64,000 nucleotides of DNA, taken from positions 15,128,001 through 15,192,000 of the forward strand of contig NC_083292.1 of the NCBI RefSeq assembly GCF_963506605.1. Reading direction: 5' to 3'. Numbering within the stretch: position 1 is the stretch's first letter; every line of letters starts with the position of its first letter. A program made the position numbers and the translations under genes. Below the pieces are notes generated by a model, which saw nothing but the letters and a program-made list of their open reading frames with translations, made no database searches and was not told the DNA's origin. The stretch comes from Zootoca vivipara (taxonomy: Eukaryota). Shown here piece by piece: positions 465 to 40,859 of the stretch.

Positions 465-2347
465 GTAAGGGATGCCCAATGAAGCCTTTGGGGATCTTGG
501 AGAAGGTGGCTTGGATAGAACAGAGAAGTACAGTATGAAAATATGCGTGGGCACAAGCAGGCAGGAAAGCCTCTCTGAGAACAGAGGGCATTTTGGCAGG
601 TAGGAGGGCAAATTCCTAGGAGCTCTGGCAGAGGAGCATGCAGAAGCCCTTGGCGGTATCTCCAGGCAAGGCGATAGTGAACCAGGTGGACCAAAGGCAG
701 CTTCTCATGTTACTCAAGTGTAGGGTGAACTTTTGGCAATCTGTAGTTTTCAGTGAGTTCCTCTCTTGGGGTGTCCTCCATTGCCACAGAGAAGGGTAGG
801 AGGGTGGTCGCTAAATCTGAAGGTATTGCCCCAGGCAGGAGACTGGAGTGCTGCCAGGACAGGCAGCAGTGGTGGCTCTTCTTCAAGCAGGAGGGTGACC
901 CTCTCCTGGGGGGGGGGGGGGAAGCAGGAAGCTATTTTTCTTCCCAGTCACTTACAGAGCAAAGAGCCCAGGGCTCAAGCCCAGCCTGTTGCTGGTTCTG
1001 CTCTGGTGCAGATGCTCTTTTATTATGACATGCTTGTTTGCTCAAAGACCCTCTTCCGAGTTGACATTTCCTCCTCTCAGCCTCCAGCTCCAAGGCTCAC
1101 CTCTGCTCCGAAACGACACAGCCCTCCGTGGGGAGCAAGGCCGACGCCAGCCGCATCAAGACCCGCATGTTTCCCAGCATGCCCAAGCTCTTCATTCCCT
1201 CGTCCGTCACCAAGTTCCCACCCGAGATCACCGTCACCCCGCCAACCCCAACCCTCCTCTCCCCCAAGGGCAGCATTTCGGAAGAAACCAAGCAGAAGCT
1301 AAAGGTACTTCCCAGGGTTTGGGGCGGGGGTTGTCATTGGGGCCCCAGTCATGCTTTGAATTTGGCAGAGAGAATTTGTGTGTGCAGACTGGGGTGGAAG
1401 TGGAGGAGGCTGTCCAGGCAGCTGCAGACAAGAGTCCTCTGTGCCCTCTTTGCCTCTATCCGCTGCCCCCCTTGGGTTCTCAGGTGGGCTTAAGGGACCC
1501 ATATTCTGTTTGGGGTTTGTAAAACATAAGAAGGGCCTTCAGGTCAAAGAGGGCCCACTTAGTCCAGCCCATAGCTGCCAAGTTCTCCTTTTTTTTAAGG
1601 GAAATTCCCTTATGCTGAATAGGCTTCCTCGCGAGAAAAGGGAAAACTTGGCAGCTATGGTCCAGCCCCCTGTTCTTCTAGAGGCCAGCCAGCTGCCCCA
1701 GAGGAAGCAGGACTTTAGCAATTCCAACACCTCAAGGAGGGCCTCATCCAGGCTTGCTGAGTCCTGACTTCCTAACATTGGAGGGGGGGGGCTCTTTCTG
1801 TTCCCCAGTCAAAGCAAGGTCCATCCTCTGTTTGGTCACAGCGGGAATAAGGAACAAACTGTCTGGCTGAACAGGCAGGCAGAGTTTGAAGGGGGTGGCA
1901 CCTGTGATACCCTTTTGCAAACAGCCTTGGTGGAAGGACTGGGTGGGGGCAGAAAAACTCCCCTCCCTCCCTCCTTTGGCCCGGAGTGTTGCCATGTTAA
2001 TCTAGGCTAACTACCACACCTGGTTAAGAAATTTCCTCCGTAGTCTTCCATCACTTGTATATCACTTGTATTGGAAGCACTGCAGGTTTTCAAGATGATT
2101 AAAGCAAGCTCAGGTGGAGTGGAGGGAAATGCTTTGGTGGGTAGTAGATCTTCAGAATTATTTTTTTTATAAAAAAAAAACCTCTTCCCTTTGTCTGGGC
2201 CAGTCTGCTATCCTTTCAGCCCAGTCTGCGGCGAATGTGAAGAAAGAGACCCTTTGCCAGCCAGCGCTGGAGATTGTAGAAACCTCAAGCCAAGAGTCTT
2301 CGCTGGAGAGCGACTCTGATGAAGAGGATGACTACATGGATGTCTGA
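270..2347 (+). CDS. CABIN1: CABIN1 (calcineurin-binding protein cabin-1), last three recognisable coding exons; gene begins upstream of the window
   Basis: Exons 270-464, 1081-1304, 2204-2347 join in phase. They encode ...[31 protein letters not shown]|[47 protein letters not shown], the CABIN1 C-terminus with the PEITVT calcineurin-docking motif and the MEF2-binding helix. Confidence 0.95.
1081..1304 (+). CDS. CABIN1: CABIN1 penultimate exon
   Basis: ctcctctcag acceptor, AAG|gtactt donor; encodes [28 protein letters not shown]. Confidence 0.95.
1570..1659. mobile_element. 90-bp hAT-type MITE, copy 1
   Basis: TIR CATAGCTGCCAAGTT...AACTTGGCAGCTATG; perfect 8-bp TSD GTCCAGCC. Confidence 0.9.
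2204..2347 (+). CDS. CABIN1: CABIN1 last coding exon
   Basis: cag acceptor at 2201-2203; [12 protein letters not shown]...DDYMDV then TGA. Confidence 0.95.
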
Positions 2348-3129
2348 GGGGTGCTGGGCGGGGGTCTCCGCCCTCCCTTCCCCTCCCCTCCCATCGGCTT
2401 CTCTTTCCAGCATCACAGCCACCAGCTGTTACCACCTTCAGTGCTGCTGCCTCTGCTGTTGGCTGTAACTTACCTGGCAGCCGGAAAGCTCACCACTGTC
2501 ACCCCCAAGCCAAATCTGCACTTAAATCCCTCGGCACCTCCTCACTCATTTCCCTTTCTTTAAATGGACGGCTTTTACAGGAGGCAGCAGCAGCAGCAGC
2601 ATTTGGCTGGCTGGCTAAGCAGGAGAGACTGGACCGGCCACTGCGATGGTCTTGCCTCCTTCGTTACTTTAAGCAAAACCGTGGCTTATTTTATCTCGGT
2701 GTTGTCTTAAAAGGACCAGGCGGGAGAGACAGCTGGCAACCTCACTAGGACTCTGCCTCTTCGGGGACCGTTGGACAAGTGGCGTAAGCCGAGTGGTCAC
2801 AGGGCACCTTTGGTCTTATCAGGAAACGGATTTCAGTACCATTTTGGTAATGTCTGCTTTTTACAGAACGACACAAAGGGTATATGTTTGTTTTTTAAGT
2901 ATATATATATATATATAAATATATGTGGAGGGGTTGCTCACATTTATATGGGGAACATAAAGGAAGCCCGGCATTTTTTTCTACTGAATGTTAATGTTGT
3001 AATATAAGGAATACAAACCCTGCACTTCAATAGTGGGGCGTGTTGTGCCCACAGCATGTGTCACAGAGCTTGCCAGGTGGGGTTTCAATTTCTTGGGCGG
3101 GTGGGGGAGGTTGGAGAAGACAAGGGTTA

Positions 3130-3186
3130 AATAAATGGTGCAGTGCAAAGCTTTGTAATAATAAACATACATTTTTTCTTAATAAA
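3130..3186 (+). terminator. CABIN1 polyadenylation signals
   Basis: Three AATAAA hexamers (3130, 3160, 3181) about 0.8 kb after the stop, followed by a U-rich stretch. Confidence 0.65.
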
Positions 3187-4483
3187 ACGAGAGCACGTTT
3201 CTCCCAAGCCTCTTCTCTGCTGTGCCTGGAATGCTCTTTCACCCTTTCATCCACTTTCCTCTCCCTCCTCCCAGGTCTCTAGAAGAGGCAAAGAAATCTG
3301 AATTTCAGGGGAGAGTGGCCCCCGCCTCAGGGCAACCAGTGAGAGAGCTGAGTTACAGCTGATGCAAGGGACGGTGGAGTAGAGAAGGCCTCTTCCCCTT
3401 CCTCCCTGAGCATGCTGAAGTGGGCTGGGTCACCTCAGGCTCTACTGGGGCTGGAACACTTTTCATCCAGCCACTTGAGCCAAGTAGCAGACTTGGGGCG
3501 CAAGAACAGCCTCCTTTCCTCCTCTCCTGTCAGGGCTGTTTGCTTCCCAACTAGGAAGATTCTTTGGTTCTGTACACACAGCAGGTTGGTGTTTCTCTAC
3601 CTCCCCCCTCCACCATTTCCAATTCCATTGGCACATCGTTGTCCGCATCCGGATGGCTGGATGTGTCTCCAAGTTGCCTGCTGTCCTTACCCAGTGGGCG
3701 GAGCGGGGTCATTGGGTGTCTTCTTCCGTTTTCAAATCGGATAGATGCTGGTTTTAGGGAAGATGCACCCAGGTGCATTAATTCTCAAGAAAGTGGAGAG
3801 GATAGAGGTGGCTTGTAGCTGACACCATATGTAAGCGACTACGCAAACAAGTGTTGGGAGTGCGGTGGATGCAGAGTAAGAGGGACCCAGCTGGCCTGAT
3901 TCCCCACCAGTAGCAGCAGGGTCAGGGAACTGGTACATTTTCGGAGGGGGGAAGGGGTCATTGAGGCAGCTTCACTTTTAAAGACTGTGTGTGGCCTCAG
4001 GGACAAATGAGTGGAGGTCCATTGGTCATGGCAGCTCCTTCCCTTAGGGTGTAGGGTCAGCTCCCCTTTGTCTTGGGGGGCAAGCAGTGAACTTCATTGG
4101 TTCTCTGTTTGGCTGAACATTCACAATATTAGCCTTCAGCTGAATAGAAGCCTTGCAAGGTGCTGGCCATAGGAATGAAGTTTTATGATTTGCAATCCTA
4201 AATCTCATTGAACTGATCCCAGGTTCCATTTAGCCCAAGGCTGCTTGATGGCAGAGGGGAGAGAACAGTTGCCTTGGAGGCTGGTAGTCCAATCCTGTGC
4301 ATGTTTACTCAGAAGAAAATCTCACTATGTTCACTGCAGGTAGCATTAAAGCCTGAGTTACAAGTGAGCACAGGATGTGTAAGCCCAGTATCAATTTCCA
4401 GCTTCTGAAAAGCCAAGTGCTCTGAATCACCTCCTGCACCAGCCTTTGTGTTAATTCCTAATCACCGAGTAAGATCACTAGCT

Positions 4484-4712
4484 CAGGGGTCAGGAAGGTT
4501 TATCTTGCCTGGGCCAGATCGGTCCCGCGGAGATCTCTCTGTAGGCCGGAGTGCATGTGCCTGTGATTCTCGGCACCTGCGCATGCGCAGACATGATTTT
4601 TGGCGCTGCGGAAGCGCCGCACTTGTAGCTCAATTCAGGGGTGGCTCATGGGCCGGTCAAACGACCTCTGCGGGCCGCTTCTGGCCCATGGGCCTTAGGT
4701 TGCTGACCTCTG
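4484..4712. mobile_element. hAT (CAGGGG-terminal) non-autonomous element
   Basis: CAGGGGTCAG...CTGACCTCTG termini, degenerate TSD CACTA; a related 5' end starts near 32151. Confidence 0.65.
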
Positions 4713-6211
4713 CACTATGGTAGCTGTATGTACAGGAAGTGACTTGAGAAAGCTGAACCTGCTGAACTTCTACCTGGCCATGCAGCACTCTATTTCAGGA
4801 CACACATTTGTGGAGTGGGCTTCCACATGCAAGATCATGCAAGCAACCCTCCATTGTCCCTGGATCTCAGGCCACATACCCAGCGGCGGAGCAAGGGGGG
4901 TGCGGTGGAGGCAGATCGCCCCAGGTGTCACCTCTGGAGGGGGTGACAAAATGCTGGGCGGCACTCACTGCGGGGCCTGCAGCACGCCTGAGCCACACAT
5001 CGCTCCTGGGAGAGACACGGTGGCTTTGGCGCGCACAGGCTCTGCACTGCTCAAACGGTCCGCCTGCTGCCTCGCACTCAGCTGTAGGGTGGCTAAATGG
5101 GAGGAGGCAGGCAGACTCCTCGGAGGGTCCTGCCCCGGCTGACCCAAACCCCGCAGGCTGCTGGCCCCGCCCCTGGGTGCCACTCCAGGCGCACGATCGG
5201 CTTGCTCTCCACTGCACATACCTGAACCATCAGGGCATTCGCTCAACCCTCTGAGGTCACTGTCTTGCTTGTCCATCTAGAATCCGATTGTGTCATCTGA
5301 GGCTGCTGTAGGGCCTTTTTTTGTTTTGCAACACACGGTCCTGATTTTCAAAGCAATTTTTTTTGGGGGGTGGGCGTGTTCCATGTATTAGTTTCATGCA
5401 GATTATGAGATTATAGGGATGGATGGCCAGCATTAAGAAAGCATCTTGTGTTTTCCTGCTATTGTAGGGGAGATTAAAGGTGACTTGTTTTAATTCTTCC
5501 ACTTCTTAGATAAAGGCTCCCTCTGCTTGCTCCCAAGGATTTATATGGGCAATTAAGAGGCTGGAGTCTGAAAGGTCTCAATTAGGCAGTGAGGGGAGGG
5601 ATCTCTTTACAAGCACCTCTTAAGAAAACTCCCATTAAAGGGAAGCCAGGCCATCAGCCTCTGCTGCGTCAATAAGTATTGAACAAATTAAAAGCTGTTC
5701 TCCTCCTAGTACCTGCTGCTTGATTTAGTTGCTAGCGTTTAATAAAAGCCCAAGTTGGGAAGTCAAATTCTGGCAGGAAATGGCTGTAAGTGGAAAAGGG
5801 GTAGTGGTCCTTCTCTCGGTCTCCCCTTTTACGCACCCCACTTGTAGTAACTCCCCACCTTTTCTCCTGGGCCAGCCACTGCCTCTCAGCCCTGCCTACC
5901 TTGCAGGATTGTAGGTAAGGGTAAAAAGGAGAGGAAATTCCAGACCATGTATGCCGCCTTGATCTCATTGTGGGGGAAAGCGGGATATAAATGTAGAAAT
6001 AAAACCGGTCAGCTAACTTTCTTAACGAGCAACTTGCAAGCTTCTTACTTGAAGCTGCTTATCTCTAATAATTGCCAAAATATCGTGGGCAAAGGATGAG
6101 ACTCCAGTTAATCAATGGGGCCACACTTAAGCCATATTAGAAAAACTGACCAGACCCCTGAGAGCTGTTTCTGGTAATTAAGACAGATGTGACTTCTATA
6201 TGAAAGACAGA

Positions 6212-6298
6212 ATGACGAAGTGTGCATGCACACGAAAGCTCATACCAAAATAAAAACTTAGTTGGTCTTTAAGGTGCTACTGAAGGAATTTTTTTTAT
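6212..6298 (+). mobile_element. Penelope-like element terminal fragment
   Basis: GAAGTGTGCATGCACACGAAAGCTCATACC...TTAGTTGGTCTTTAAGGTGCTACTG resembles the reptile Penelope-like terminal repeat. Confidence 0.65.
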
Positions 6299-9200
6299 TC
6301 CTGGCATGTGTCAGTGTTGCAGATGGCAGATTGCCCCTGCTACCGCCCACTGGCATTTAGGGAGAGATGTTTGGGGATAGATACCAAATGGCACAATTTA
6401 AGAGGACAGAAGAACCTCTTCCCTCTTATCGCTGTGTATCTTTTTGTTGACCGTAATTGTTGTTCCCTGAACGTCTTCTATTTTCTTGTTCCGTTTTCTG
6501 GAAAACAGGAAAAAAATGTTTTGTGAGAAGGGATGGAGAGCATAATTATTTAGGCGTAAGCTTGTGTATTTTGCACCGGGCTTTGGCTGGCAATATATTG
6601 GGGGTTCTTGGGAAAACAAGGGGGATCTTGACAGACTGAAATCTGACACACCCACACCCTGCTCCATTGCTCGGACATTGGAAGTGGTCCAAGTGGATGG
6701 TCATCTCTGGTTGTGACCATCTGGCAGAGATGTCGTAGAGCTTGGGAGCAAGAACCACGAAGCTCAAACTGGATCTTCTCTGGGCTGCTTGGGAGGAGTC
6801 CATTTGGGGCACCTGGGTGGCCACTGTGAGAACAGGATACTGGACTAGATGAGCCCCCACTCTGGCCGGATCCAGCTGCTGCAGGAGTCTTCTTAGGCTG
6901 CTTTAAAAAAAAAGGATCTCCAAAAAGAAATCCTGAAACATTACAAATGGGCCAGAGGCAGCACCTCCTAGCCAGTTTAATTCTTTCCCTGCCTTCAGGT
7001 GAGATGCAAATCTGCTCCCCCACCCCCCCACCCCAAAATATGTATATGGGTGTGGTTAGCAGGTGCTCAGCCCTGACTGCTGCTTCATCTCCCCTTTTGC
7101 CCCAAAAGAGCATCAAAGCTGCTGGGGGCAGAGTTGTGTAGTGTGAGAGGCCCTCAGCTGCACACTTAATGGCTTGTGTGTGTTTTAAAGGAAGAAGCCG
7201 AAAGTGATTGTAAAACTAAGGAAAGAGAAGAGAGTAAAATGGTCCGTGTTTCTGCCACCACCTCTTTGCATTTCCACTACTTAATGGGATAATAAATTCA
7301 AAGGCAACAAGCCCATTTGTGCTTTAATTGGATGTTCGTGAGTGGTTTTCTCCCCAAAGACCGACGTCCACGTCCATGGCAACAACAAAATTGCTGGCCA
7401 CAATGACAGGGAGGACCCAAATGTTCCCCTCCCCAAGTGCCAAGCAATTTCCCGAGGTCATTCCATGGCATCACATCTTTGGGCCCAGCAGTGTCAGATA
7501 GAGTACCACTCTACATGGAGGCTCAATCTGGCTCAGATCCACAGAAAGGCCTGATCCTTCATTTTAAAACAAAATGAGTTCTTTTCCACCCGCCTGTCTT
7601 TCCCAGATCCACTTCCTTCCTTGGCTGACCAAAGGCGAGGATGGGAAACCCTGGCAGCTGAGAGAGAAGTCAGCAGATAACAGCAAACAGGTGCTAAGGG
7701 GAGACGGGGATTTTTTAAGGGGGAAGGGGACCTTGGGGGCGATGACTCCCTCTCCTAGCATAATTGCACACCAAGAACAGTTGATGGAGAGCATTGGGGG
7801 CAGCCCCTGTCCTCACTGTGTTTGCTGCCATTCCCAGGAGGTTCTCTTGGGCTCTTGGTCAGGAATTGGCTCTGATGTGGCCAAAACTTGACTCAGCGGG
7901 CAGCCCTGGAGTTGATCGTAGGCACTAGAAGTGCCACCCCATCGGTGAAGACATTGCTGCACCAGCGGAACTCCTCACCACCACAGCATGGCCTAGTTCT
8001 CAAGCCCTGCCATTCTGGTCAGAAGTTCACAGCGGTGGCAGGCCCAAGGGCTAAGGTCAGGGGTTTCCCTTCCCTCATTTTGGCCTGCTTTTCCACCTCC
8101 CCTCTGCTCCTGGCAGAGTCTGGGCCGAGGCAAGGGACATGCGCTAGAGACTTGGCCTGGGTGGTTGTCACGCAGAAGATGAGGGATCACCCCACTTCCT
8201 CTGGGGGTGGCTTGAGTGCTGCCTTCATCTGAAACTGAGAAGGATGTTGTGGTGTGAGCCAGCCTACATTGCCAATTTTGCACCGGAGGGGGGCACATTT
8301 TTGGGGTAACACCTTTTCCCATAGTGGGGGATTTGGCGCTCAAGGTGGCCGCAGGTTGAGTTGGCAATTAAAGCTGGTCCATTTTGACCTGAGCTTGACG
8401 CCTTCCATAGATCAGCACCCGGCTGGTCCCTCTGAAAACATGATCCTGGCCTCGGTGGCCTGATCCAGCAGCCACATGTGGTTTCCCCCTGCCAAACTGT
8501 GCCTGCCTGTGGCTCATAAGGTGGTCCTGAAGCAGCCACCTTGCGGACTGGAGCCTTCAGGATCAGGCCAAAGTCTAACCCAGCCTCCGCTTCTCAAGGT
8601 GGGTTTGGGGAGCTGGCCCTGATCCTGCCCCTCTGCCTGCCTGTAGCAGGGCCTGTTTGCTGCCTCTGCATCCACTGGGGAAGGAAGCAAATGTCCAGAA
8701 GGCTTCGTCTGCCCCCCCCCTAGCCTCTCCTCCCAGACCATCCTTCAGCTCTGGCCCCCATGGGACCCCGCCTGGAGGCCCCTCCTGCCCCCTCAATCTC
8801 CCCCCCCCCCCAAGCTATCAACACTTTCCTCTCCTCCCTCGAGAGCTATTCAGATGCTCTTTGAGAGATGCCAATAAACTCTTTGGTGTGAAAGTAAAAT
8901 TGCTGTCCCTTTCTCTCTCTCTCTCCCCCCCCCCTCCATCTTTAGTTGCCACTAATGGAATGGCTTCTGTGGGTCCTGCCTTCCCCACTCAGAACTTTAA
9001 GGACTCTCAGATATATATTTTCTTAACCCCCACCCCATTTAGGCCACTGTGCAGCTCTTGTGTAGGGCTGGGCATTCCCGGGGTGAGTGGGGGTGGCATG
9101 TGTCCTGGAGTTTCTCTTGGTGCTCCTGAACGGGACCCTCTGCAGCTCATGAAAGCAGTGGTTCACTGTGGGCAAAGGGGCCACCTCAGCTGGATGATGG

Positions 9201-11440
9201 ACTTTGCCTGCTGAGATCCAGGTTCGAATCCCCCCTACCCCTTGGCTGCAAAGTTGGGGGTGCGGCCTGGGCCCATGGCACTTGCCAAAACCCAAAAGGA
9301 GTGGTGGGGACGAGAAGGAAAGCCGAGTTTGTTCTGTGGAGGAAGTGGTGTGTGTGTGTGGAATGTGAGGATTTGGCCACAGCCCATGCTGTGTGGGGGC
9401 TGGAGTAGGGGGGGGGGCTGGTGTGCCTGCCATGGCTCCCTCCCCAGAGTGGTCAAGGGAGCTGGAGCTGCTCAAAGAGGAAAAGGAAAACAGACAGAAA
9501 AGAGAGATATAACCATCTAGCCCTGCAGCTTTCCGGGGGGGCTGGGGGGTTCTGGCTGATGCGTCCCTTCGCACTGGGAAGGGGGCAGTGAAGGTGGCAA
9601 AGCAGACTTGACCTTCCTCTTGGTCCTAAGGCTTAACGCCAAAACCTCTGAGAAGCTTCTTTAGTGATACACTTCTTTAGTGTATCAAGAAGTGGGTGCT
9701 GAGCCCAGCTGCATTTTGCTCCGCTTTATTTCTCTCTCTCTCCCACTGCCCCCAGCCCAGAAGCAGAAGCTAAATCAGGGTTTCCCAAACTTACCCTGGG
9801 CCTACAGCTGTTTTTGGACTACAGTCCCCATCACCCCTGACCCCCCCGGGTCCTGCCAGCCAGAGATGATGGGAGTTGTAGCCTAACAACAGGGGGGAAA
9901 CCCAAGTTTGAGCTAAATGAAAGGCATGCAGTTAAAGAGCGCAGGGATCCTGGGCACATTGACTTGTGAGTAAGTTCTCCCCAGTGTTCTACGCAGAGGA
10001 GACCAATGGAGAAGAATAGCCGTGATTAACAGGGGTGATTAATCTTGGCAAAACCTGCGTACAAACCTGGTTGCGTACAAACCTGCTGGTTTCTGTTAGG
10101 CTTACTTACAAGTAAACATGCCTCGGATCTCTAGTCAGAGGATGGCCTGGACAGCAATGAAAGGAGGCGCTGCAACTGCCTGTGGAGCCCTTTGAAAGAG
10201 CACTTGCCTTTGCATTTTCCTCTCCTGGGGATGTCAAGTGGCTGTGAAGCATTTTGCATCTTCCTTCCATGCTGCTAACTAACCAGGAAGGAGTGGGGGG
10301 GGGGGTTTGAGGTGGAGAAAAATAAGTCTTCCTCTTGTTTTGCAAGAATAGGAGTCCCCTTGAGCAGCCCACCCCCCCCACCCCTTCCAGATTCTGGATA
10401 GGACCCCTACCCCACCTCCACCCTCCTCCTTCCTTGCCTCCCAGTTGTTATTTATTAATTTGATTTATATTCTGCTCCCAGGGCAGTGTACCACATTTAG
10501 AACACATTTTACAGAGCATCAGTAATCGAAACCTGATAAAAAGCGTAACAGGCAGGATCATACCAAATCAATCATAATAACAGTACCCCCTGTTTAGATT
10601 TGTCTTCTGCAAGACCCGGAACAAACGGGGGAGTGGGGGCGGGCGGGTAGGATTCTGCCTTGGAGCAGCATACTTGGGCTGTGGGCACATTGCTGTCTTA
10701 AAAACGCAGCTAGTTGTTATTTTTCTCCATTTGGATCAAAACTAGTTTGGCAGCGGCCGGGGGCGGGGGGCGACCAGATGAAAAGGCAGCATTCCCAAGA
10801 ATAGTGCCGGGCTGTGGTTGTGGCACAAGGGGCTATTGGGACGGGTCCACAATGATGTGCAGCCAGTGCGCCAGTGCGCCTGGCGGTTAACCAGAAGATT
10901 GGTGTTTGGAGCCCAAGCATGGATGGTTGTGGGGGGCAAGAGACCTGCGTTGTAGGGGGCTGGATTCTACCATTCTATGAACTGGTACTTGGCAATGCAG
11001 CCAGTTCTGGGGAGGAGCTTGGCTCAGCAATGTCAACGAGAACTGTTTGCGCTATGGAAAACAGAAGTGGGTGAGGACGCATGAGAAGAAGGGAGGGGAA
11101 CTTCTGGCTTCTGACCCCGCTTGGCCGCTGGGCTTCAGCGAGACGGGAAGCCCTGGGCCAGCCAGCCACTCTCAGGGTGAAGCTCTGCTTTAGCTGGGGG
11201 CAGTCAGTGCGCCAAGAGGGGACCCATTTGCCTCTAGTGTAAGGAAGAGGGGTCCCTTGGTGTGCCTGGCCCCCTGGCACTTCCTGCTGCTTGGCTGGTC
11301 TAAGTGGGCATTAACAGTCCAGGAAGGGGGCTATTCCTTCTCCTGGTGGGGTTTCCTGTATCTCAAAGCCATGTTAATTCACTGGGCTTCTACCCTCTCC
11401 ACTCTCCAGCCATTGCAGGGTAGCAGCAGATATTTCCTCT

Positions 11441-11631
11441 CTTTGTTCCTGCTGGACATCAAAGGTTGTTGGGGGGGGGGGGAGAGAGAGACAGGGCTGG
11501 CTCCTCCCCACTTGTTAAACCTTCATAAGCCGGGAACTCACCTTGGCTAGAAGCTGAGTTGAGTCTTTCCTCCTTTGGCCTCTCTGTTGTGTGTTTGGAT
11601 CTGGACTCCTGCGACTATCCTCACACATCTC
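11441..11631 (+). promoter_or_regulatory. Candidate Tbx16 promoter with TCF/LEF and T-box-like motifs
   Basis: CTTTGTT 11441-11447, ACATCAAAGG 11456-11465 and TCACACAT 11621-11628 lie just upstream of the first ATG. Confidence 0.45.
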
Positions 11632-11657
11632 TCTGGCTCCTTCCAGCACCTGGGAAG

Positions 11658-11673
11658 ATGCAGGCTGGACCAG
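11658..11673 (+). CDS. tbx16: Tbx16 candidate first coding micro-exon (MQAGP-D)
   Basis: aagATG CAG GCT GGA CCA G|gtagg; phase 1 matches exon 2; similar in length to the short N-termini of tbx16/Apod. Confidence 0.65.
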
Positions 11674-12077
11674 GTAGGTGCTGACCCTTCCTGGATTTCT
11701 TAACCCCCCCCCGGGGGGGGGAAGCTGTGCCCTCCTGGCTTGCTAGGTTAGTCGTGCTGTCTTTCTGGACAGTAGGCACAGACCAAAGCCCCAAGAGAGC
11801 CAGGCTGCGCTCTTGTATTGATTGCCTCTCCTGGATTGGGACCCGAGTGTGTTTATTATCTCGAGAAGCGTGGGCAGCCTGCTGTCTCCATGCTCCCCAC
11901 ACAGGCTGTGGGGCAGGACTGCATTGAGGAAAACATGATTTCAAGGAAATATCAACCATCTGACTTTCTGAAGGCAGCCCTGTTCAGGGAAGTTCTTCAT
12001 GTTTGATGTCGTATTCTGTTTTAATTTGTTGGAAGCTGCCCAGAGTGGCTGGGGAAACCCAGTCAGATGGGCGGCAT

Positions 12078-12130
<53 letters not shown>

Positions 12131-24100: not shown

Positions 24101-24951
24101 AAAAGGCAGTAGAGATATATTTTTTTAATAAATACAAAAACACAGCGGGGGCAAGAGGCAAACACTTTCTCACGAGATCCCCCTCCGCTGGTGTTCATTT
24201 CCATTAGCAGTGAAAGAATGAGCAAGCAATTCCAAATTCAAAAGCTTTTAATGGCTGATTAATTGGCTGGTTTCCATGTGGAACGGCGGCCGACAATGCA
24301 GTGGGTGGTTAGATGGACGAATGGGGTGCTGCCCTTGTGGAGTTAAGGTTTTCTTGGGTGGCGTGACAAGGGATCAAAGCCCCATGTCGCATTTTTACGC
24401 TTACTCAGAAGATGCCCACCTGTGGAGGCTGCTAGTCTTTTTTACCCAGCAGGACCCCTGAAAGGTCCTGCTTCTTGAGGTGGGCTCTGCCTTGTTTACA
24501 TCTTCTTGGCTTCTCTTTTAGGTTTCACGAGGCTGGCGAAGGCTCCTTTTCGGGGGCCCTCCGCGACAGAGTATCTCTCAGTGAATTCCGAGCCAGACCC
24601 CCGCAGCTGGACTTTGCCCCAGTTCCTGAGCAAGACCCTAAACTAGCAGACGGCGGCTTCGCCACCAGTCTCCCCCCACTTCCTGCTACTCTCCCTCCAC
24701 AGGACTACTCTGGGATGGTGGCCATGGCTGTTGACCCTGCAGGGAAAGCAGGATCCCGGAGGCCCATGTACAGCCCCTACAACCCTGACCAAAGCTTCAG
24801 CCAGTGGGTGGTTCCTTCACCGACACCCTACCGCCCTATGAGTTACTCTGGGTTTCCTACAGACTACAGTACGCAGGGGCCCTCAGGCCACCCCCCAGGC
24901 GCAATGGCAGACTGGAGCCAATATTCCTTGTTCCCCTATGCCTGCTGGTAG
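11658..24951 (+). CDS. tbx16: T-box transcription factor Tbx16/VegT (TBX6L/spadetail orthologue), 9 coding exons, 457 aa
   Basis: Exons 11658-11673, 16155-16287, 18308-18410, 19446-19610, 20702-20848, 21493-21563, 21890-21975, 23646-23868, 24522-24951 sum to 1374 nt with no frameshift. T-box [27 protein letters not shown]...[12 protein letters not shown]...NPFAKGFR. The C-terminus [15 protein letters not shown] matches the VegT/tbx16 end, not mammalian TBX6. Confidence 0.9.
11942..12129 (+). mobile_element. L2-type LINE 3' end with (TAT)n tail
   Basis: Matches the 3' end of the longer copy at 37047-37550; ends in a long TAT run. Confidence 0.75.
14147..14389. mobile_element. Tc1/mariner (Tigger-like) MITE
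   Basis: TA|CAGTGGTACCTCTACTTAC...GTAAGTAGAGGTACCACTG|TA; followed by (TACA)n to 14436. Confidence 0.9.
14633..14878 (+). mobile_element. tRNA-derived SINE with CR1-like tail, interrupted by a MITE
   Basis: tRNA-like head (CTCAATTGGTTAGA...GGTTCAATCCC) and a CR1-type 3' end (ACTAGATGATCC...CTCTATGATT). Confidence 0.7.
14696..14786. mobile_element. 90-bp hAT-type MITE, copy 2
   Basis: Same TIRs as copy 1; perfect TSD ATCCCGAT. Confidence 0.9.
14998..15358 (+). mobile_element. Sauria SINE, full length
   Basis: GGGACCCAGGTGGTGCTGTGG head, B box GTTCGAATCC, (ACCTTT)n tail, TSD approximately AAGCTTTAAAA(A)CA. Confidence 0.95.
15370..15833. mobile_element. hAT MITE with an internal ~71-bp tandem repeat (about 4 units)
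   Basis: CAGGGG...CCCCTG termini; perfect TSD CTTTAAAA; repeated unit TTTTACATGAGTAGAATGTG...TTATTTGTGGGGCCTGCCTGGTG. Confidence 0.9.
16155..16287 (+). CDS. tbx16: Tbx16 exon 2 (start of T-box)
   Basis: [45 protein letters not shown]; donor gtgag. Confidence 0.9.
17206..17297. mobile_element. 90-bp hAT-type MITE, copy 3 (opposite orientation, more diverged)
   Basis: CATAGCTGTCAAGTT...AACTTGACAGCTGTG; TSD CCCAAAGG/CCCTAAGG. Confidence 0.85.
17798..18117. mobile_element. hAT non-autonomous element
   Basis: CAGTGGTGGCCAAC...GTTGGACAAGCCTG; TSD ATCTGAAA/ATCTAAAA; GATCTAC subterminal repeats. Confidence 0.75.
18308..18410 (+). CDS. tbx16: Tbx16 exon 3
   Basis: [34 protein letters not shown]; canonical splice sites. 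Confidence 0.95.
18820..18932 (+). mobile_element. CR1 LINE 3' end
   Basis: TTCCTGCATTGCAGGGGGTTGGACTAGATGA...TTCTAT tail; similar pieces at about 16960-17018 and 50845-50917. Confidence 0.7.
19021..19253 (+). mobile_element. L2-type LINE 3' end
   Basis: Closely matches the 3' part (about 37315-37540) of the longer copy. Confidence 0.8.
19446..19610 (+). CDS. tbx16: Tbx16 exon 4
   Basis: [27 protein letters not shown]...[11 protein letters not shown]. Confidence 0.95.
19779..20243 (+). mobile_element. L1-clade LINE 3' fragment (ORF2 C-terminus and 3' UTR)
   Basis: [31 protein letters not shown]...[12 protein letters not shown] resembles an L1 ORF2 tail; AATAAA at 20236; second copy at 60015-60545. 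Confidence 0.7.
20702..20848 (+). CDS. tbx16: Tbx16 exon 5
   Basis: [19 protein letters not shown]...[16 protein letters not shown]. Confidence 0.95.
21493..21563 (+). CDS. tbx16: Tbx16 exon 6 (end of T-box)
   Basis: [23 protein letters not shown]. Confidence 0.95.
21890..21975 (+). CDS. tbx16: Tbx16 exon 7
   Basis: tttccacag acceptor, G|gtaac donor; phase 2-1 bridges exons 6 and 8. Confidence 0.8.
22248..22490. mobile_element. Tc1/mariner MITE
   Basis: TA|CAGTGGTATCTTGGT...ACCAAAGTACCACTG|TA. Confidence 0.85.
23646..23868 (+). CDS. tbx16: Tbx16 exon 8
   Basis: [15 protein letters not shown]...SLQAYR; AG|gtaag donor. Confidence 0.85.
24522..24951 (+). CDS. tbx16: Tbx16 last exon
   Basis: FHEAGEG...[15 protein letters not shown] then TAG. 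Confidence 0.9.
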
Positions 24952-25177
24952 AGGGCTAGGAGGAAGACTTGAGGGTAGGGGAGACTTTGTGAGATCTGCC
25001 TTATACTTTGCACAAAGGAAGGCTTCTTACCCCTCCCCCACTTTGCGTTTCTCCACCAAAGAGCAGCCATTCTAAACCCTGGAAAGCTGGTTTGGAGCAT
25101 GTGCCAAGATGCTGGCTTGGAAATTGGGACAGTTGCCAAGACATACCCTCTCCACTCCTGCCACCCCAGTCGCCTTT

Positions 25178-25183
25178 AATAAA
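25178..25183 (+). terminator. Tbx16 poly(A) signal
   Basis: AATAAA about 230 nt after the stop, followed by GU/U-rich sequence. Confidence 0.6.
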
Positions 25184-25793
25184 ATGACAGAATGTTTCAT
25201 TGGTTTTTGAAGCCCATTCACATTCACACACACACGAAGAAAGTGCTCTGGGCACATCTTTTTTTTCTCTTTTTCCACCTGACAAGAAGGAAACACAGAG
25301 CTACCTACAAAGGCACAAATCTCCAGCAAGAGAAAGGAGGCCCTATGGAAAAGTATTAATCAGCTGAAAGGCCTGTAATCCATTTGCTGCAGGTAAAAGA
25401 ATAACAGCGCTGCCCCCTTTCTCTCTTGTGTCTTGTCCCAACAAATCCTAGGCTGGGACAACTCTGTTAGGGCGTGGATCACTGCTAGAGATCTGCATAC
25501 TCCCTACCACTTCTCAGAAGAAACCGCAAGCTTCTCAATTCCAGGAGTTATAAAGGAAATGTTCCTTTAAGGATATTCAGAGAGCATTGTTCTTTTCTAA
25601 ATGCTAGGAACCAGTGACATGCAGGGTAAGAGACCCACTCTCTTGCAGCCACAAGAGCACTGTGGAGAAGGGAATGAGATCCTCTTGCACAGAGTATCTT
25701 CTGCTGTCACAGAAAAGCCTGTCGCTGGCAGCCAGCATGACGGTGAACATTCAAGGCATAGATAACAACTATTGCTGCAAGTTGGATGCATGT

Positions 25794-25799
25794 TTTATT
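25794..25799 (-). terminator. Probable CRKL poly(A) signal
   Basis: AATAAA on the minus strand ends a ~2.9-kb AU-rich, TE-poor stretch after the CRKL stop. Confidence 0.55.
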
Positions 25800-28725
25800 G
25801 AGAGTACGCAAACTGGGCAATGGCTGGGTGTGGGACCTCCAGTGAAGTAAACTGAGAAAACAAAAAAAGGCATTAATTTTAACAAAAGACGCTGTGTGTT
25901 CTAAGAATATATTTAATACTGTTAATTCTGTAGCACAAAATAAAATAAAAACAAGCTATGATGATCCCCACAATAAGGCTTAAAGCATAACACATTATTG
26001 CCTGAAATTCAAATGATACTTCAATTATGTAAAAATGTTTGCACAGTGAAGACTGTCTTTTAAGTACAAGGCCACCTTTTTTTCCCCCTCTGCAAAAAAT
26101 GGGTCTGGATATGTTTGCATTTATAACAACCCAAACTAGGTCAAGAGGAACATTTACAGCTCCCCAGAACGCTTCTACTGGTCCCACAAGGGAAGCGAGC
26201 AGTCAAGTGTCGCGTTCTGCTGGAGACATCAGAGTAAATCACCACACACACAGGACAGCCAACCCAGTTCCAGAATGTTCATTATACAATACAAAAAGTT
26301 ATTGCAGGCACATGAAATGGCACAGCGAACGCTTTCTGTCCCTTCACAAAAAATAATGGTCAGGGGGCCCCCAAGAGGCCCAACCAAACAGGAGATTCCC
26401 TTTGATGCATTCCTGCCTGATTTGTAAACAATCATGATTTCTATCGGCACTTTTGCCAGCTCCCCCCTCGATCAGGGATCGATTCATCTGTACAGCAGGA
26501 TAAGGGAAAACCTTCCCAAGATGGTTTTGACAGCAGACATTACAACCAATTACCAATTTGAAACCCAACCCCATGCACACTCACTGAGGGAGCAAGTCTT
26601 ACTGAGATAAATGGGACTTAATTTCTGAGTAAACATGCCAAGGATTGCACTGAAAGCTTTTTGGCACCTTACATCGTAATGCATAGATTGATGAGGTCTT
26701 GCGATTAATCGGAAACTAGCCCCAGGAAGGGACAGCAGCTTCTCCAAGACACAGCCCAGCCAGAAGCCAAGAGGAAAAACTGGCGACGTTTACAGACACA
26801 TTAAACATGGTTGTTGGGTTGTTTTTTTAGTATGAAAATCTTTTTATCATAATAAAATAGCAAATAACCAATTTTGATGCAAGTTTTACCATCAAAATCA
26901 ACTTAGTGTGCTACACTTGGGCTGCGCTTGTTAGCCATGACAGAAGCCACTCTTTGGCTTCAGCTGGACTTAAAAGCTCTCACCTGCCTCGGAAGCCACC
27001 AGCTAGTCTTGTTTGTGGTCCTGGTTAACAGACACTCATGTGCAGAGATTCTTATTTGCAATCCTAACATTAGTTTACCAGGCAGCAAAGACTCTGAAGA
27101 CAGCGTCAAGGAAGCAAAAGCTCCTTGACTCCAACATCAGACTCCTTGCTGCCTACTGAGAGCAGGGTAAATAAAAAGCATCCCATCATGCACACGCACA
27201 CACACAGACGTGCTGCTTCTGCAGCTTTTCAAGGCAGAAGTTGCACACAGTCTATATCTATAAGCTGCCATTTAAGGACAGCTTGGGAGAGTGAGGGCCT
27301 CTATGTAGTAGGATTATCTTATTATGGCAGACTGACATTTATTGCAGCTTAAATATTCCTAAACACAAAGCTCAGTAGTACTACTCCACTGTAACTCAAG
27401 ACAGATCAAGAGGGGCACCTGCCTGGCTATTCTCTAGAACAGCTGTGCTGCTGTCCATCACGGAGGGTCTTAGCACCTAAGGTGAGAAAATGCTTTCTGG
27501 GAGTATCAAGGCTAGCCTAATTCACAGTATGTTTGGCAGTAAAATCGTGCTTCTTCAGACCATCAACAGTCACTACAGGGTTTTAAGATTCAGTGAACTG
27601 AACAGCTTCTCTGCAGACCGTAAAGCTGAAATGGCACCCCCCCCCCAGCAACTTTCATCCCAAATTAAGGCACTTTAATACTGAGTTGAACATGAGGCTC
27701 CTCAGAAGTCCAAAATCCTCAAGAGACAACACGTGCCAACTAAACATTTAAAAATCATCATCTAGGGAGTCAGTTCTTCAAATGACAAAATCCACATTCA
27801 AGTTTCTGCATTTACCATTCCTCGTTATAATAGTTAGAATATAACAGAGAAATTTGTACAGAAGGGCACAGGAGCGTTAAAAGGTTTCAATGGTAAAAAC
27901 TTTTCATTACGTCTATATTCCCATTGGAGATTATCAATGGTTGGTGGTTTTGCTTTTCAAAAGAGGCAGAAAGTGCCAATTTCAACCAAGCTTGCGAAAG
28001 ACTATCTTTTAAAATCTTGTATCTAGTGACTGTCAGATTCAGCTTTTTTTAAAAAAAAACTGCCATGGTTTTGCAAACAAAACAGCAAAATTTTAGACAA
28101 GTGTATGGCAAAACAGACCAGTTATGTGTCACGGTTATAAATAGAAGACCCTGCTCAATGCAATTCCTTAAAATGACATTTTGCTGCCATCCCAAACTTG
28201 TTTCTAGGTCAACGACAAACTCACAGAACTGTCTTGCTAATAATACACAAGCATCAATTATAGCCTAAAGACACTATTATTCTAACTGCTTAAACAGATT
28301 ATTTCCTCTCAAATCAAGTGTTCCCTGCCCTGGAAGGAAAAATTAAATTAGGTTCTGGACAAAGTTGCTTAGAATTCTCCTCCTGAGTAGAATGTTGCCC
28401 ATGGACAGAAACCTTGGCCAGGTCAGCTGAAGTTCCACCCCCTGTTCTTCTGCCTGGGTGACATCACCAATCCTCTGGAGCTTAAGGTCCAAGATCCTTC
28501 CAGGTGATACTTTTAAGTTTTGGACGACGTCATTGCTGCACGAGGGCCCACAAGCAACTTCAGCTGTATGCATTCCAAACAGGTACTACAGGGCTGTCAA
28601 ATTGCAGCAAGCTGGAAACAATGGACAATGCTTACAAGGCGCCATTAACAGTCATCATTGCACTTCCGATGATACTCATGATAGCCAGGAAATGAAGCAG
28701 CAACAGAGAAATGGGCCAACAGGAA

Positions 28726-40859
<12,134 letters not shown>

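What the first reader, a model, noticed from the sequence alone, without database searches (positions are those of the whole stretch)
11658..24951. Intact Tbx16/VegT mesoderm regulator in a lizard, a gene human and mouse lack
Seen: nine phase-consistent exons give an uninterrupted 457-aa T-box protein, and most exons are invisible in the ORF track. Established: the T-box signature RMFPQCKI...[11 protein letters not shown] and the terminal DWSQYxLFxYxCW belong to Xenopus VegT, zebrafish tbx16/spadetail and chicken TBX6L, a subfamily distinct from mammalian TBX6 and absent from human and mouse. Inference: pipelines may label this TBX6 or TBX6-like, hiding a squamate gastrulation/somitogenesis regulator whose function is little studied.
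Basis: partly seen in the sequence, partly recalled or inferred. Interest (0 to 1): 0.75.

Follow-up and report, generated by a model that had tools for sequence, protein, structure and literature searches.

The report
Lizard VegT/Tbx16 mesoderm gene, already catalogued
This is an intact, spliced lizard copy of VegT/Tbx16, a gene placental mammals are reported to have lost and that likely steers early embryonic cells into trunk mesoderm; it is real but ordinary, since fish, frogs, birds, turtles, platypus and marsupials have it and databases already list it for lizards.

Summary
Confirmed and already known. Nine GT-AG exons at 11658-24951 give a stop-free 457-aa T-box protein. Introns 2-8 are spliced exactly so in contigs of 3 of 4 runs laid (2 studies); intron 1 was not seen directly. 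In a 50-row T-box tree the protein falls in the Tbx16/VegT/chicken-TBX6L clade (99/96), and an AU test rejects grouping it with TBX6 (p=2.8e-6). A separate true TBX6 lies on contig C13. The gene is not hidden: NCBI lists lacertid proteins as 'TBX6L-like', the chicken name of this orthologue group (452/457 identical). The eutherian loss was published in 2011 (PMC3296468, passages); monotremes and marsupials keep the gene. Exon 1 matches the short MHSLP-type Xenopus isoform (zygotic, from recall), so a gastrula/tailbud role is likelier than a maternal one; function in squamates is untested. One small new detail: T-box residue 195 is Tyr in 19 of 20 squamate and 0 of 114 other Tbx16 proteins. Two look-ups of earlier scan findings showed none on this gene.

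The parts
11658..11673 (+). Coding exon 1 (MQAGP plus 1 nt, phase-1 donor); equivalent of the MHSLP/MQVLP first exon of the short Xenopus VegT isoform and chicken TBX6L
   Evidence: contig depth just upstream in 3 of 4 runs; joint to exon 2 not seen directly
16155..16287 (+). Exon 2, start of the T-box
18308..18410 (+). Exon 3, T-box (RMFPQCK); ends at a phase-0 intron that the C13 TBX6 gene lacks
19446..19610 (+). Exon 4, T-box (YVHPDS, KLTNN)
20702..20848 (+). Exon 5, T-box (HSMH, TAYQN)
21493..21563 (+). Exon 6, end of the T-box (NPFAKGF); carries the squamate-type Tyr195
21890..21975 (+). Exon 7, basic KRT stretch after the T-box (possible nuclear localisation signal, inferred)
23646..23868 (+). 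Exon 8, poorly conserved Ser/Pro-rich region with low model confidence
24522..24951 (+). Exon 9 coding part, ending in the Tbx16-type [13 protein letters not shown] motif and the stop; single match in the genome
24952..25700 (+). 3' UTR; AATAAA at 25178; one contig ends at 25235, others reach the end of the stretch laid (25700)
11441..11529 (+). Possible promoter elements: two TCF/LEF-like sites (11441, 11458; 0.7 expected per kb in shuffles) and a TATA-like CATAAG (11524). Weak and untested
1065..2347 (+). Upstream neighbour: last coding exons of CABIN1 (MEF2-binding domain)
28740..40295 (-). Downstream neighbour CRKL (SH2 and SH3 exons; lower bound approximate)

Best explanation
This is the lizard's single, intact, spliced Tbx16/VegT (chicken TBX6L) gene, distinct from its TBX6 gene, and it likely acts as a zygotic T-box transcription factor that moves gastrula and tailbud progenitors into paraxial mesoderm. 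Shown here: gene structure, splicing of introns 2-8, orthology, single copy, and a separate TBX6. Inferred from orthologues: FGF/Wnt/Nodal signalling switches it on in ingressing and tailbud mesoderm progenitors. The T-box (residues 25-205) would bind T-box half-sites. The protein would activate mesoderm and muscle genes (msgn1, myf5, myoD) and repress sox2 and the progenitor state, partly redundantly with Brachyury and Eomes, and then hand over to TBX6 in presomitic mesoderm. The C-terminal half is likely a disordered effector region whose conserved terminal W...CW motif probably binds a cofactor.
For: Open 457-aa frame. Seven GT-AG joints in runs X1, X2, X3. Tree clade 99/96 with VegT, chicken TBX6L and fish tbx16; AU p=2.8e-6 against TBX6. 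T-box identity 88% to chicken TBX6L, 77% to Xenopus VegT, 61% to human TBX6. The C-terminal half aligns to chicken (E 2e-69) and VegT (8e-27) but not to human or lizard TBX6 (E>0.1). Terminal motif in 95 of 120 top homologues and 0 of 102 proteins first returned by the TBX6-exon search. Constraint: 0-3 changes in the 181-aa T-box against 5-17 in the other 276 aa across 5 lacertid proteins; of 17 listed coding variants, 1 of 5 in the T-box and 7 of 12 outside change the residue. The N-terminus matches the 435-aa Xenopus isoform. Orthologue function: zebrafish tbx16 (PMC13268175, abstract and introduction); FGF-dependent Tbx6L in chick tailbud mesoderm progenitors (PMC3484059, passages); shared T-box sites and zygotic VegT in Xenopus (PMC3791401, passages).
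Against: No expression site, stage or target was measured in a lizard, and the tissues of runs X1-X3 are unknown. Raw RNA run X21 (about 6% read) had no depth on exons 3-9. The exon 1-2 joint was not seen, and 356 nt at the 5' end of the X1 and X2 contigs could not be placed. The promoter motifs are near chance level. Because lizards keep TBX6, Tbx16 may do less here than in chick. The structure model is poor overall (mean pLDDT 52), so disorder of the tail is only suggested.
Confidence: 0.8

Rival explanations
1. It also acts as a maternally deposited germ-layer determinant, like Xenopus maternal VegT.
For: It is the VegT orthologue, and maternal VegT specifies endoderm and mesoderm in Xenopus (PMC4744249, passages). 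Unplaced 5' sequence in two contigs leaves room for another first exon.
Against: Exon 1 is of the short MHSLP type. No match to the 26-aa extension of four 455-aa Xenopus proteins was found in 2000-16300 (best E about 0.1), and no ATG-to-phase-1-donor exon was found in intron 1. That the long isoform is the maternal one is recalled, not tested, and the protein start alone does not decide whether the mRNA is deposited in eggs.
Confidence: 0.1
2. The gene is largely redundant with TBX6 in squamates, or has shifted its targets or tissue.
For: Both genes are intact in this genome. Squamates share a Tyr195 absent from 114 other Tbx16 proteins. The anole protein has a long branch (0.31).
Against: The T-box is strongly conserved (88-89% to turtle, tuatara, chicken) and constrained among lacertids. 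The gene is kept in all squamate groups sampled.
Confidence: 0.08
3. It is the TBX6 orthologue or a tbx16l-type paralogue.
For: T-box identity of 61-64% to these groups.
Against: The AU test rejects the TBX6 grouping. tbx16l rows form their own clade (100/100). The C13 gene groups with TBX6 (99/97), its T-box is contained in named lizard TBX6 P0474, and it has Yippee-, PP2A/PP4-type- and aldolase-coding neighbours.
Confidence: 0.01
4. It is a decaying relic on the way to loss.
For: No exon reads in one raw RNA run.
Against: Open frame, canonical splice sites, spliced contigs in two studies, and constraint on the T-box.
Confidence: 0.01

Closest known systems
Chicken TBX6L (NP_001025538, P0411) and NCBI 'TBX6L-like' of lacertids (XP_034955159.1 = P0001; XP_060125796.1 = P0360)
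   Same: Same orthologue group; 66% full-length and 88% T-box identity to chicken; MQxxPD-type start and W..CW end; 452/457 to P0001; identical to P0360 from exon 2 on.
   Different: P0360 uses other 5' exons (near window 3276-3590) and lacks the 16-nt exon 1. Squamates have Tyr195 where birds have Asp. The lizard also keeps TBX6, which is reported missing in birds (PMC11835228, passage).
Xenopus VegT / Antipodean (P0383, P0388, P0043)
   Same: Same clade; 77% T-box identity; nearly identical terminal motif; N-terminus like the 435-aa isoform.
   Different: No equivalent of the 455-aa isoform's N-terminal extension was found; maternal vegetal localisation is untested.
Teleost tbx16 / spadetail (loach P0111, catfish P0490, Amia P0050; the zebrafish sequence itself was not retrieved)
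   Same: Same clade; 74-77% T-box identity; shared terminal motif.
   Different: Fish also have a tbx16l paralogue; none appeared among the 18 T-box matches in this genome.
Mammalian TBX6 (human P0447) and the lizard's own TBX6 (G000:C13, about 37881130-37889060)
   Same: Tbx6/16/Mga subfamily; overlapping paraxial-mesoderm role (PMC3507223, passages).
   Different: Paralogue: 61% T-box identity, unalignable tail, other neighbours; the C13 gene lacks the intron at RYK/W.

Membership tests
T-box transcription factors | Complete T-box domain | tested here: met
   Pfam PF00907 1-182/182, E 8.8e-79 on P0001, whose T-box is identical to the window's; beta-rich fold with terminal helices in the model
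T-box transcription factors | Sequence-specific binding to T-box half-sites | not testable with these tools
   Inferred from conserved GRRMFP, TAYQN and NPFAKGF motifs
Tbx16/VegT/TBX6L | T-box groups with VegT, chicken TBX6L and fish tbx16 | tested here: met
   99/96 clade of 18 rows
Tbx16/VegT/TBX6L | Terminal [DE]W[SG]QYxLFxYxCW motif | tested here: met
   Present; 95 of 120 homologues against 0 of 102 from the TBX6 search
Tbx16/VegT/TBX6L | Short first coding peptide of the MHSLP/MQVLP type | tested here: met
   MQAGP-D aligns with Xenopus 435-aa, chicken, turtle and fish starts
Tbx16/VegT/TBX6L | Conserved position between CABIN1 and CRKL in other vertebrates | not tested
   Neighbours shown for this genome only; conservation in frog, fish and chick is recalled; a paper search found 0
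Tbx16/VegT/TBX6L | Expression in gastrula and tailbud mesoderm progenitors | not testable with these tools
   Spliced transcript shown, tissue unknown
Maternal VegT determinant (Xenopus type) | Long N-terminal isoform | tested here: inconclusive
   No homologous exon found, but the query is 26 aa and fast-evolving
Maternal VegT determinant (Xenopus type) | Vegetally localised oocyte mRNA | not testable with these tools
   No run known to be from oocytes
TBX6 | T-box groups with mammalian, reptile and frog TBX6 | tested here: not met
   AU p=2.8e-6; the C13 gene holds that place
tbx16l (fish TBX6L) | Groups with paddlefish and gar TBX6L | tested here: not met
   Separate 100/100 clade

The most novel reading that the evidence does not exclude
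Squamate Tbx16 is a retuned variant. An Asp-to-Tyr change at the end of the T-box helix just before the DNA-contacting NPFAKGF segment is shared across the lizards and snakes sampled and absent from tuatara, turtles, birds, mammals, amphibians and fish. It would alter DNA or partner contacts and shift the division of labour between Tbx16 and Tbx6 in the squamate axis.
Probability: 0.12. Interest if true: 0.45.

Novelty: already known. Interest (0 to 1): 0.13.

Why it matters
As a discovery it matters little: the protein is in public databases under the right family name and the placental loss is published. It has modest use as a resource. Lizards keep both Tbx16 and Tbx6, while placental mammals are reported to lack the first and birds the second, so a lizard embryo is a place to ask how the two shared paraxial-mesoderm work in the amniote ancestor. 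The corrected first exon and the squamate-specific Tyr195 are concrete handles for such work.

Tried and rejected
The search for RNA runs listed no holder on record as RNA; this blank is not used as evidence, and the spliced joints come from the lay. The second lay (2900-15400) was dominated by repeats, and its cut table did not list the exon-1 pieces, so the 356-nt 5' part of the X1/X2 contigs stays unplaced; bin depths would fit about 144 and 51 nt upstream of 11657, which do not agree with each other. Scans for an in-frame cassette exon or an alternative ATG first exon in intron 1 found none. Promoter scan: T-box and FoxH1 sites were not above chance. Ahn et al. 2012 (by DOI) and PMC5744594 are not held; nothing rests on their text. 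The supplements of PMC3296468 could not be read; they hold the platypus/opossum presence table, so marsupial and monotreme retention may already be in print. One paper search returned mostly irrelevant reptile papers. No solved Tbx16 or Tbx6 structure appeared among 14 PDB matches. No fold search or complex prediction was run, since neither would change the call. Absence in human and mouse was not tested on their genomes: it rests on PMC3296468 and on no eutherian name among the best 120 of 4633 hits. Of the 150 representatives, 20 were looked up by name and 14 more were compared with named proteins; none of these pointed to a eutherian Tbx16, though unnamed P0244 (93% to Dromiciops) has no species label.

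Full report
Observation. I read 11000-26000 and fixed the exon borders by script. Nine exons (11658-11673, 16155-16287, 18308-18410, 19446-19610, 20702-20848, 21493-21563, 21890-21975, 23646-23868, 24522-24951) total 1374 nt and give 457 aa without an internal stop. All eight introns are GT-AG, with phases 1,2,0,0,0,2,1,2. Laying four public runs on 15900-25700 showed introns 2-8 removed at exactly these places in contigs of X1, X2 and X3 (2 studies). Raw RNA run X21, of which about 6% was read, had no depth on exons 3-9. The contig runs are only guessed to be RNA, but seven GT-AG joints, with one genomic match for the last exon, are best read as mRNA. The exon 1-2 joint was not spanned. There is contig depth just upstream of exon 1 in 3 of 4 runs, and 356 nt at the 5' end of the X1 and X2 contigs remain unplaced.

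Organism and database status. The nearest named proteins are from lacertid lizards. P0001 (Zootoca vivipara, 'TBX6L-like') has the same length and differs at 5 of 457 positions. Its cluster of 10 holds Podarcis and Lacerta proteins (9 distinct ids listed), 8 named TBX6L or TBX6L-like. Six of the nine start MQAG as the window model does. P0360 is identical from exon 2 on but takes its 5' end from window 3276-3590, probably a prediction error (inference). The best 120 of 4633 hits are named TBX6L, VegT, tbx16 or T-box/hypothetical proteins of reptiles, birds, echidna, amphibians and fish, apart from one insect protein and one unnamed row; no eutherian name appears.

Orthology. I built a 50-row T-box tree (188 columns, IQ-TREE LG+C20+F+G4; rows picked by me; 11 rows are unnamed representatives labelled by best hit). 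The window protein lies in a clade of 18 with chicken TBX6L, Xenopus and axolotl VegT, fish tbx16, platypus and two marsupials (99/96). TBX6, tbx16l and MGA form separate supported clades. Forcing it with TBX6 costs 47 log-likelihood units, p-AU 2.8e-6. Outside the T-box, residues 213-457 align to chicken TBX6L (52%, E 2e-69), VegT and a loach tbx16, but not to human, lizard or frog TBX6 or paddlefish TBX6L. The terminal motif is in 95 of 120 homologues and 0 of 102 proteins first returned by the TBX6-exon search. The zebrafish sequence itself was not retrieved.

Separate TBX6. A genome search with exon 4 gave 18 T-box matches; the next best (64%) is on C13. Its main exon is 100% identical to Podarcis TBX6, its joined T-box is contained in lizard TBX6 P0474, and it groups with TBX6 (99/97). 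It lacks the intron at RYK/W that the window gene has. It is flanked by Yippee-type (below the Pfam cut-off), PP2A/PP4-type and aldolase exons, the order I recall for human YPEL3-TBX6-PPP4C-ALDOA. The window gene lies between CABIN1 (MEF2-binding) and CRKL, followed by a BTB-BACK-Kelch gene and a Gln-rich gene that I name KLHL22 and MED15 from recall.

Mechanism. Shown: an intact, constrained T-box and a poorly conserved tail with a conserved end; the structure model supports little beyond the T-box (mean pLDDT 52). The start MQAGP-D matches the 435-aa Xenopus isoform (MHSLP-D), chicken and fish, not the 455-aa isoform. No equivalent of the long extension was found. That the short isoform is the zygotic one is recalled. 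Inferred from orthologues: zebrafish tbx16 is activated by Wnt and FGF, activates myf5 and myoD, represses sox2 and the progenitor state (PMC13268175, abstract and introduction). Chick Tbx6L marks tailbud mesoderm progenitors and needs FGF/Erk (PMC3484059, passages). Xenopus VegT shares T-box sites with Brachyury and Eomes, possibly as a placeholder for Tbx6 (PMC3791401, passages). I therefore commit to a zygotic driver of paraxial mesoderm acting before TBX6 (0.8). Two TCF-like sites lie about 200 nt upstream, against 0.7 expected; this is a hint only.

What is known. [quoted passage not shown] PMC12344233 repeats the loss (passage). PMC3507223 separates Tbx6, Tbx16 and Mga and includes a lizard Tbx6 (passages). 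PMC11835228 lists TBX6 among genes reported missing in birds (passage). Six searches (listings, with five of the listed papers opened in passages) showed no squamate expression or functional study of this gene, but the library lacks most subscription journals. Earlier scan notes held nothing on this gene.

New details. Residue 195, the last of the predicted helix 187-195 before NPFAKGF, is Tyr in 19 of 20 squamate proteins (the exception is a Lerista model) and in 0 of 114 other Tbx16 proteins (104 Asp, 7 Asn, 3 Glu). It is the only column with this pattern. The position varies among other T-box proteins (D, A, Q, E; Tyr in 2 of 188 scored), so the change may be neutral, and the squamate rows share one origin. 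Marsupial copies exist; one is labelled TBX2-like.

Verdict. The gene is already annotated and its loss in placental mammals published. Novelty: already known. Interest 0.13.

Noticed in passing
G000:C1:42922470-42947600 (L009, L027-L030): A second, compact MGA-like gene lies about 35 kb upstream of the canonical-looking MGA. Its T-box exon is 93.6% identical in DNA and reads NPFLKGF for NPFAKGF; a large middle part of MGA finds no match. It groups with the lizard's own MGA, so it is likely a reptile- or lizard-level tandem duplicate. Intactness and expression were not checked.
   Followed up: partly
window 21508-21510 (exon 6, residue 195): Squamate-specific Tyr in the T-box: 19 of 20 squamate against 0 of 114 other Tbx16 proteins; tuatara has Asp.
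   Followed up: partly
window 3276-3590: Database model P0360 builds its N-terminus from this stretch, just past the CABIN1 stop, and misses the conserved 16-nt exon 1; P0361 (another lacertid) has a further different 5' end.
   Followed up: partly
window 11565-11647: An 80-nt pyrimidine-rich stretch without AG, with a branch-point-like CTCAC and ending in CCAG just before the start codon, looks like a splice acceptor. Exon 1 may sometimes be an internal 26-nt exon behind an unknown non-coding leader (and sequence reading).
   Followed up: no
proteins P0228, P0225, P0369: Marsupial and platypus orthologues; the Gracilinanus protein is labelled TBX2-like, and the Dromiciops and platypus models run past the terminal CW motif.
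   Followed up: partly
window 25377-25443: A 67-nt stretch of the 3' UTR is skipped in contigs of X1 and X2, with non-GT-AG ends; probably an allele.
   Followed up: no
window 15003-15731: Intron 1 holds a SINE-like copy (recalled as Sauria SINE; very high contig depth) and a 71-bp tandem repeat of 3.9 copies.
   Followed up: no
window 63476-64000: Long poly-Gln tract in the MED15-like gene at the window's end.
   Followed up: no
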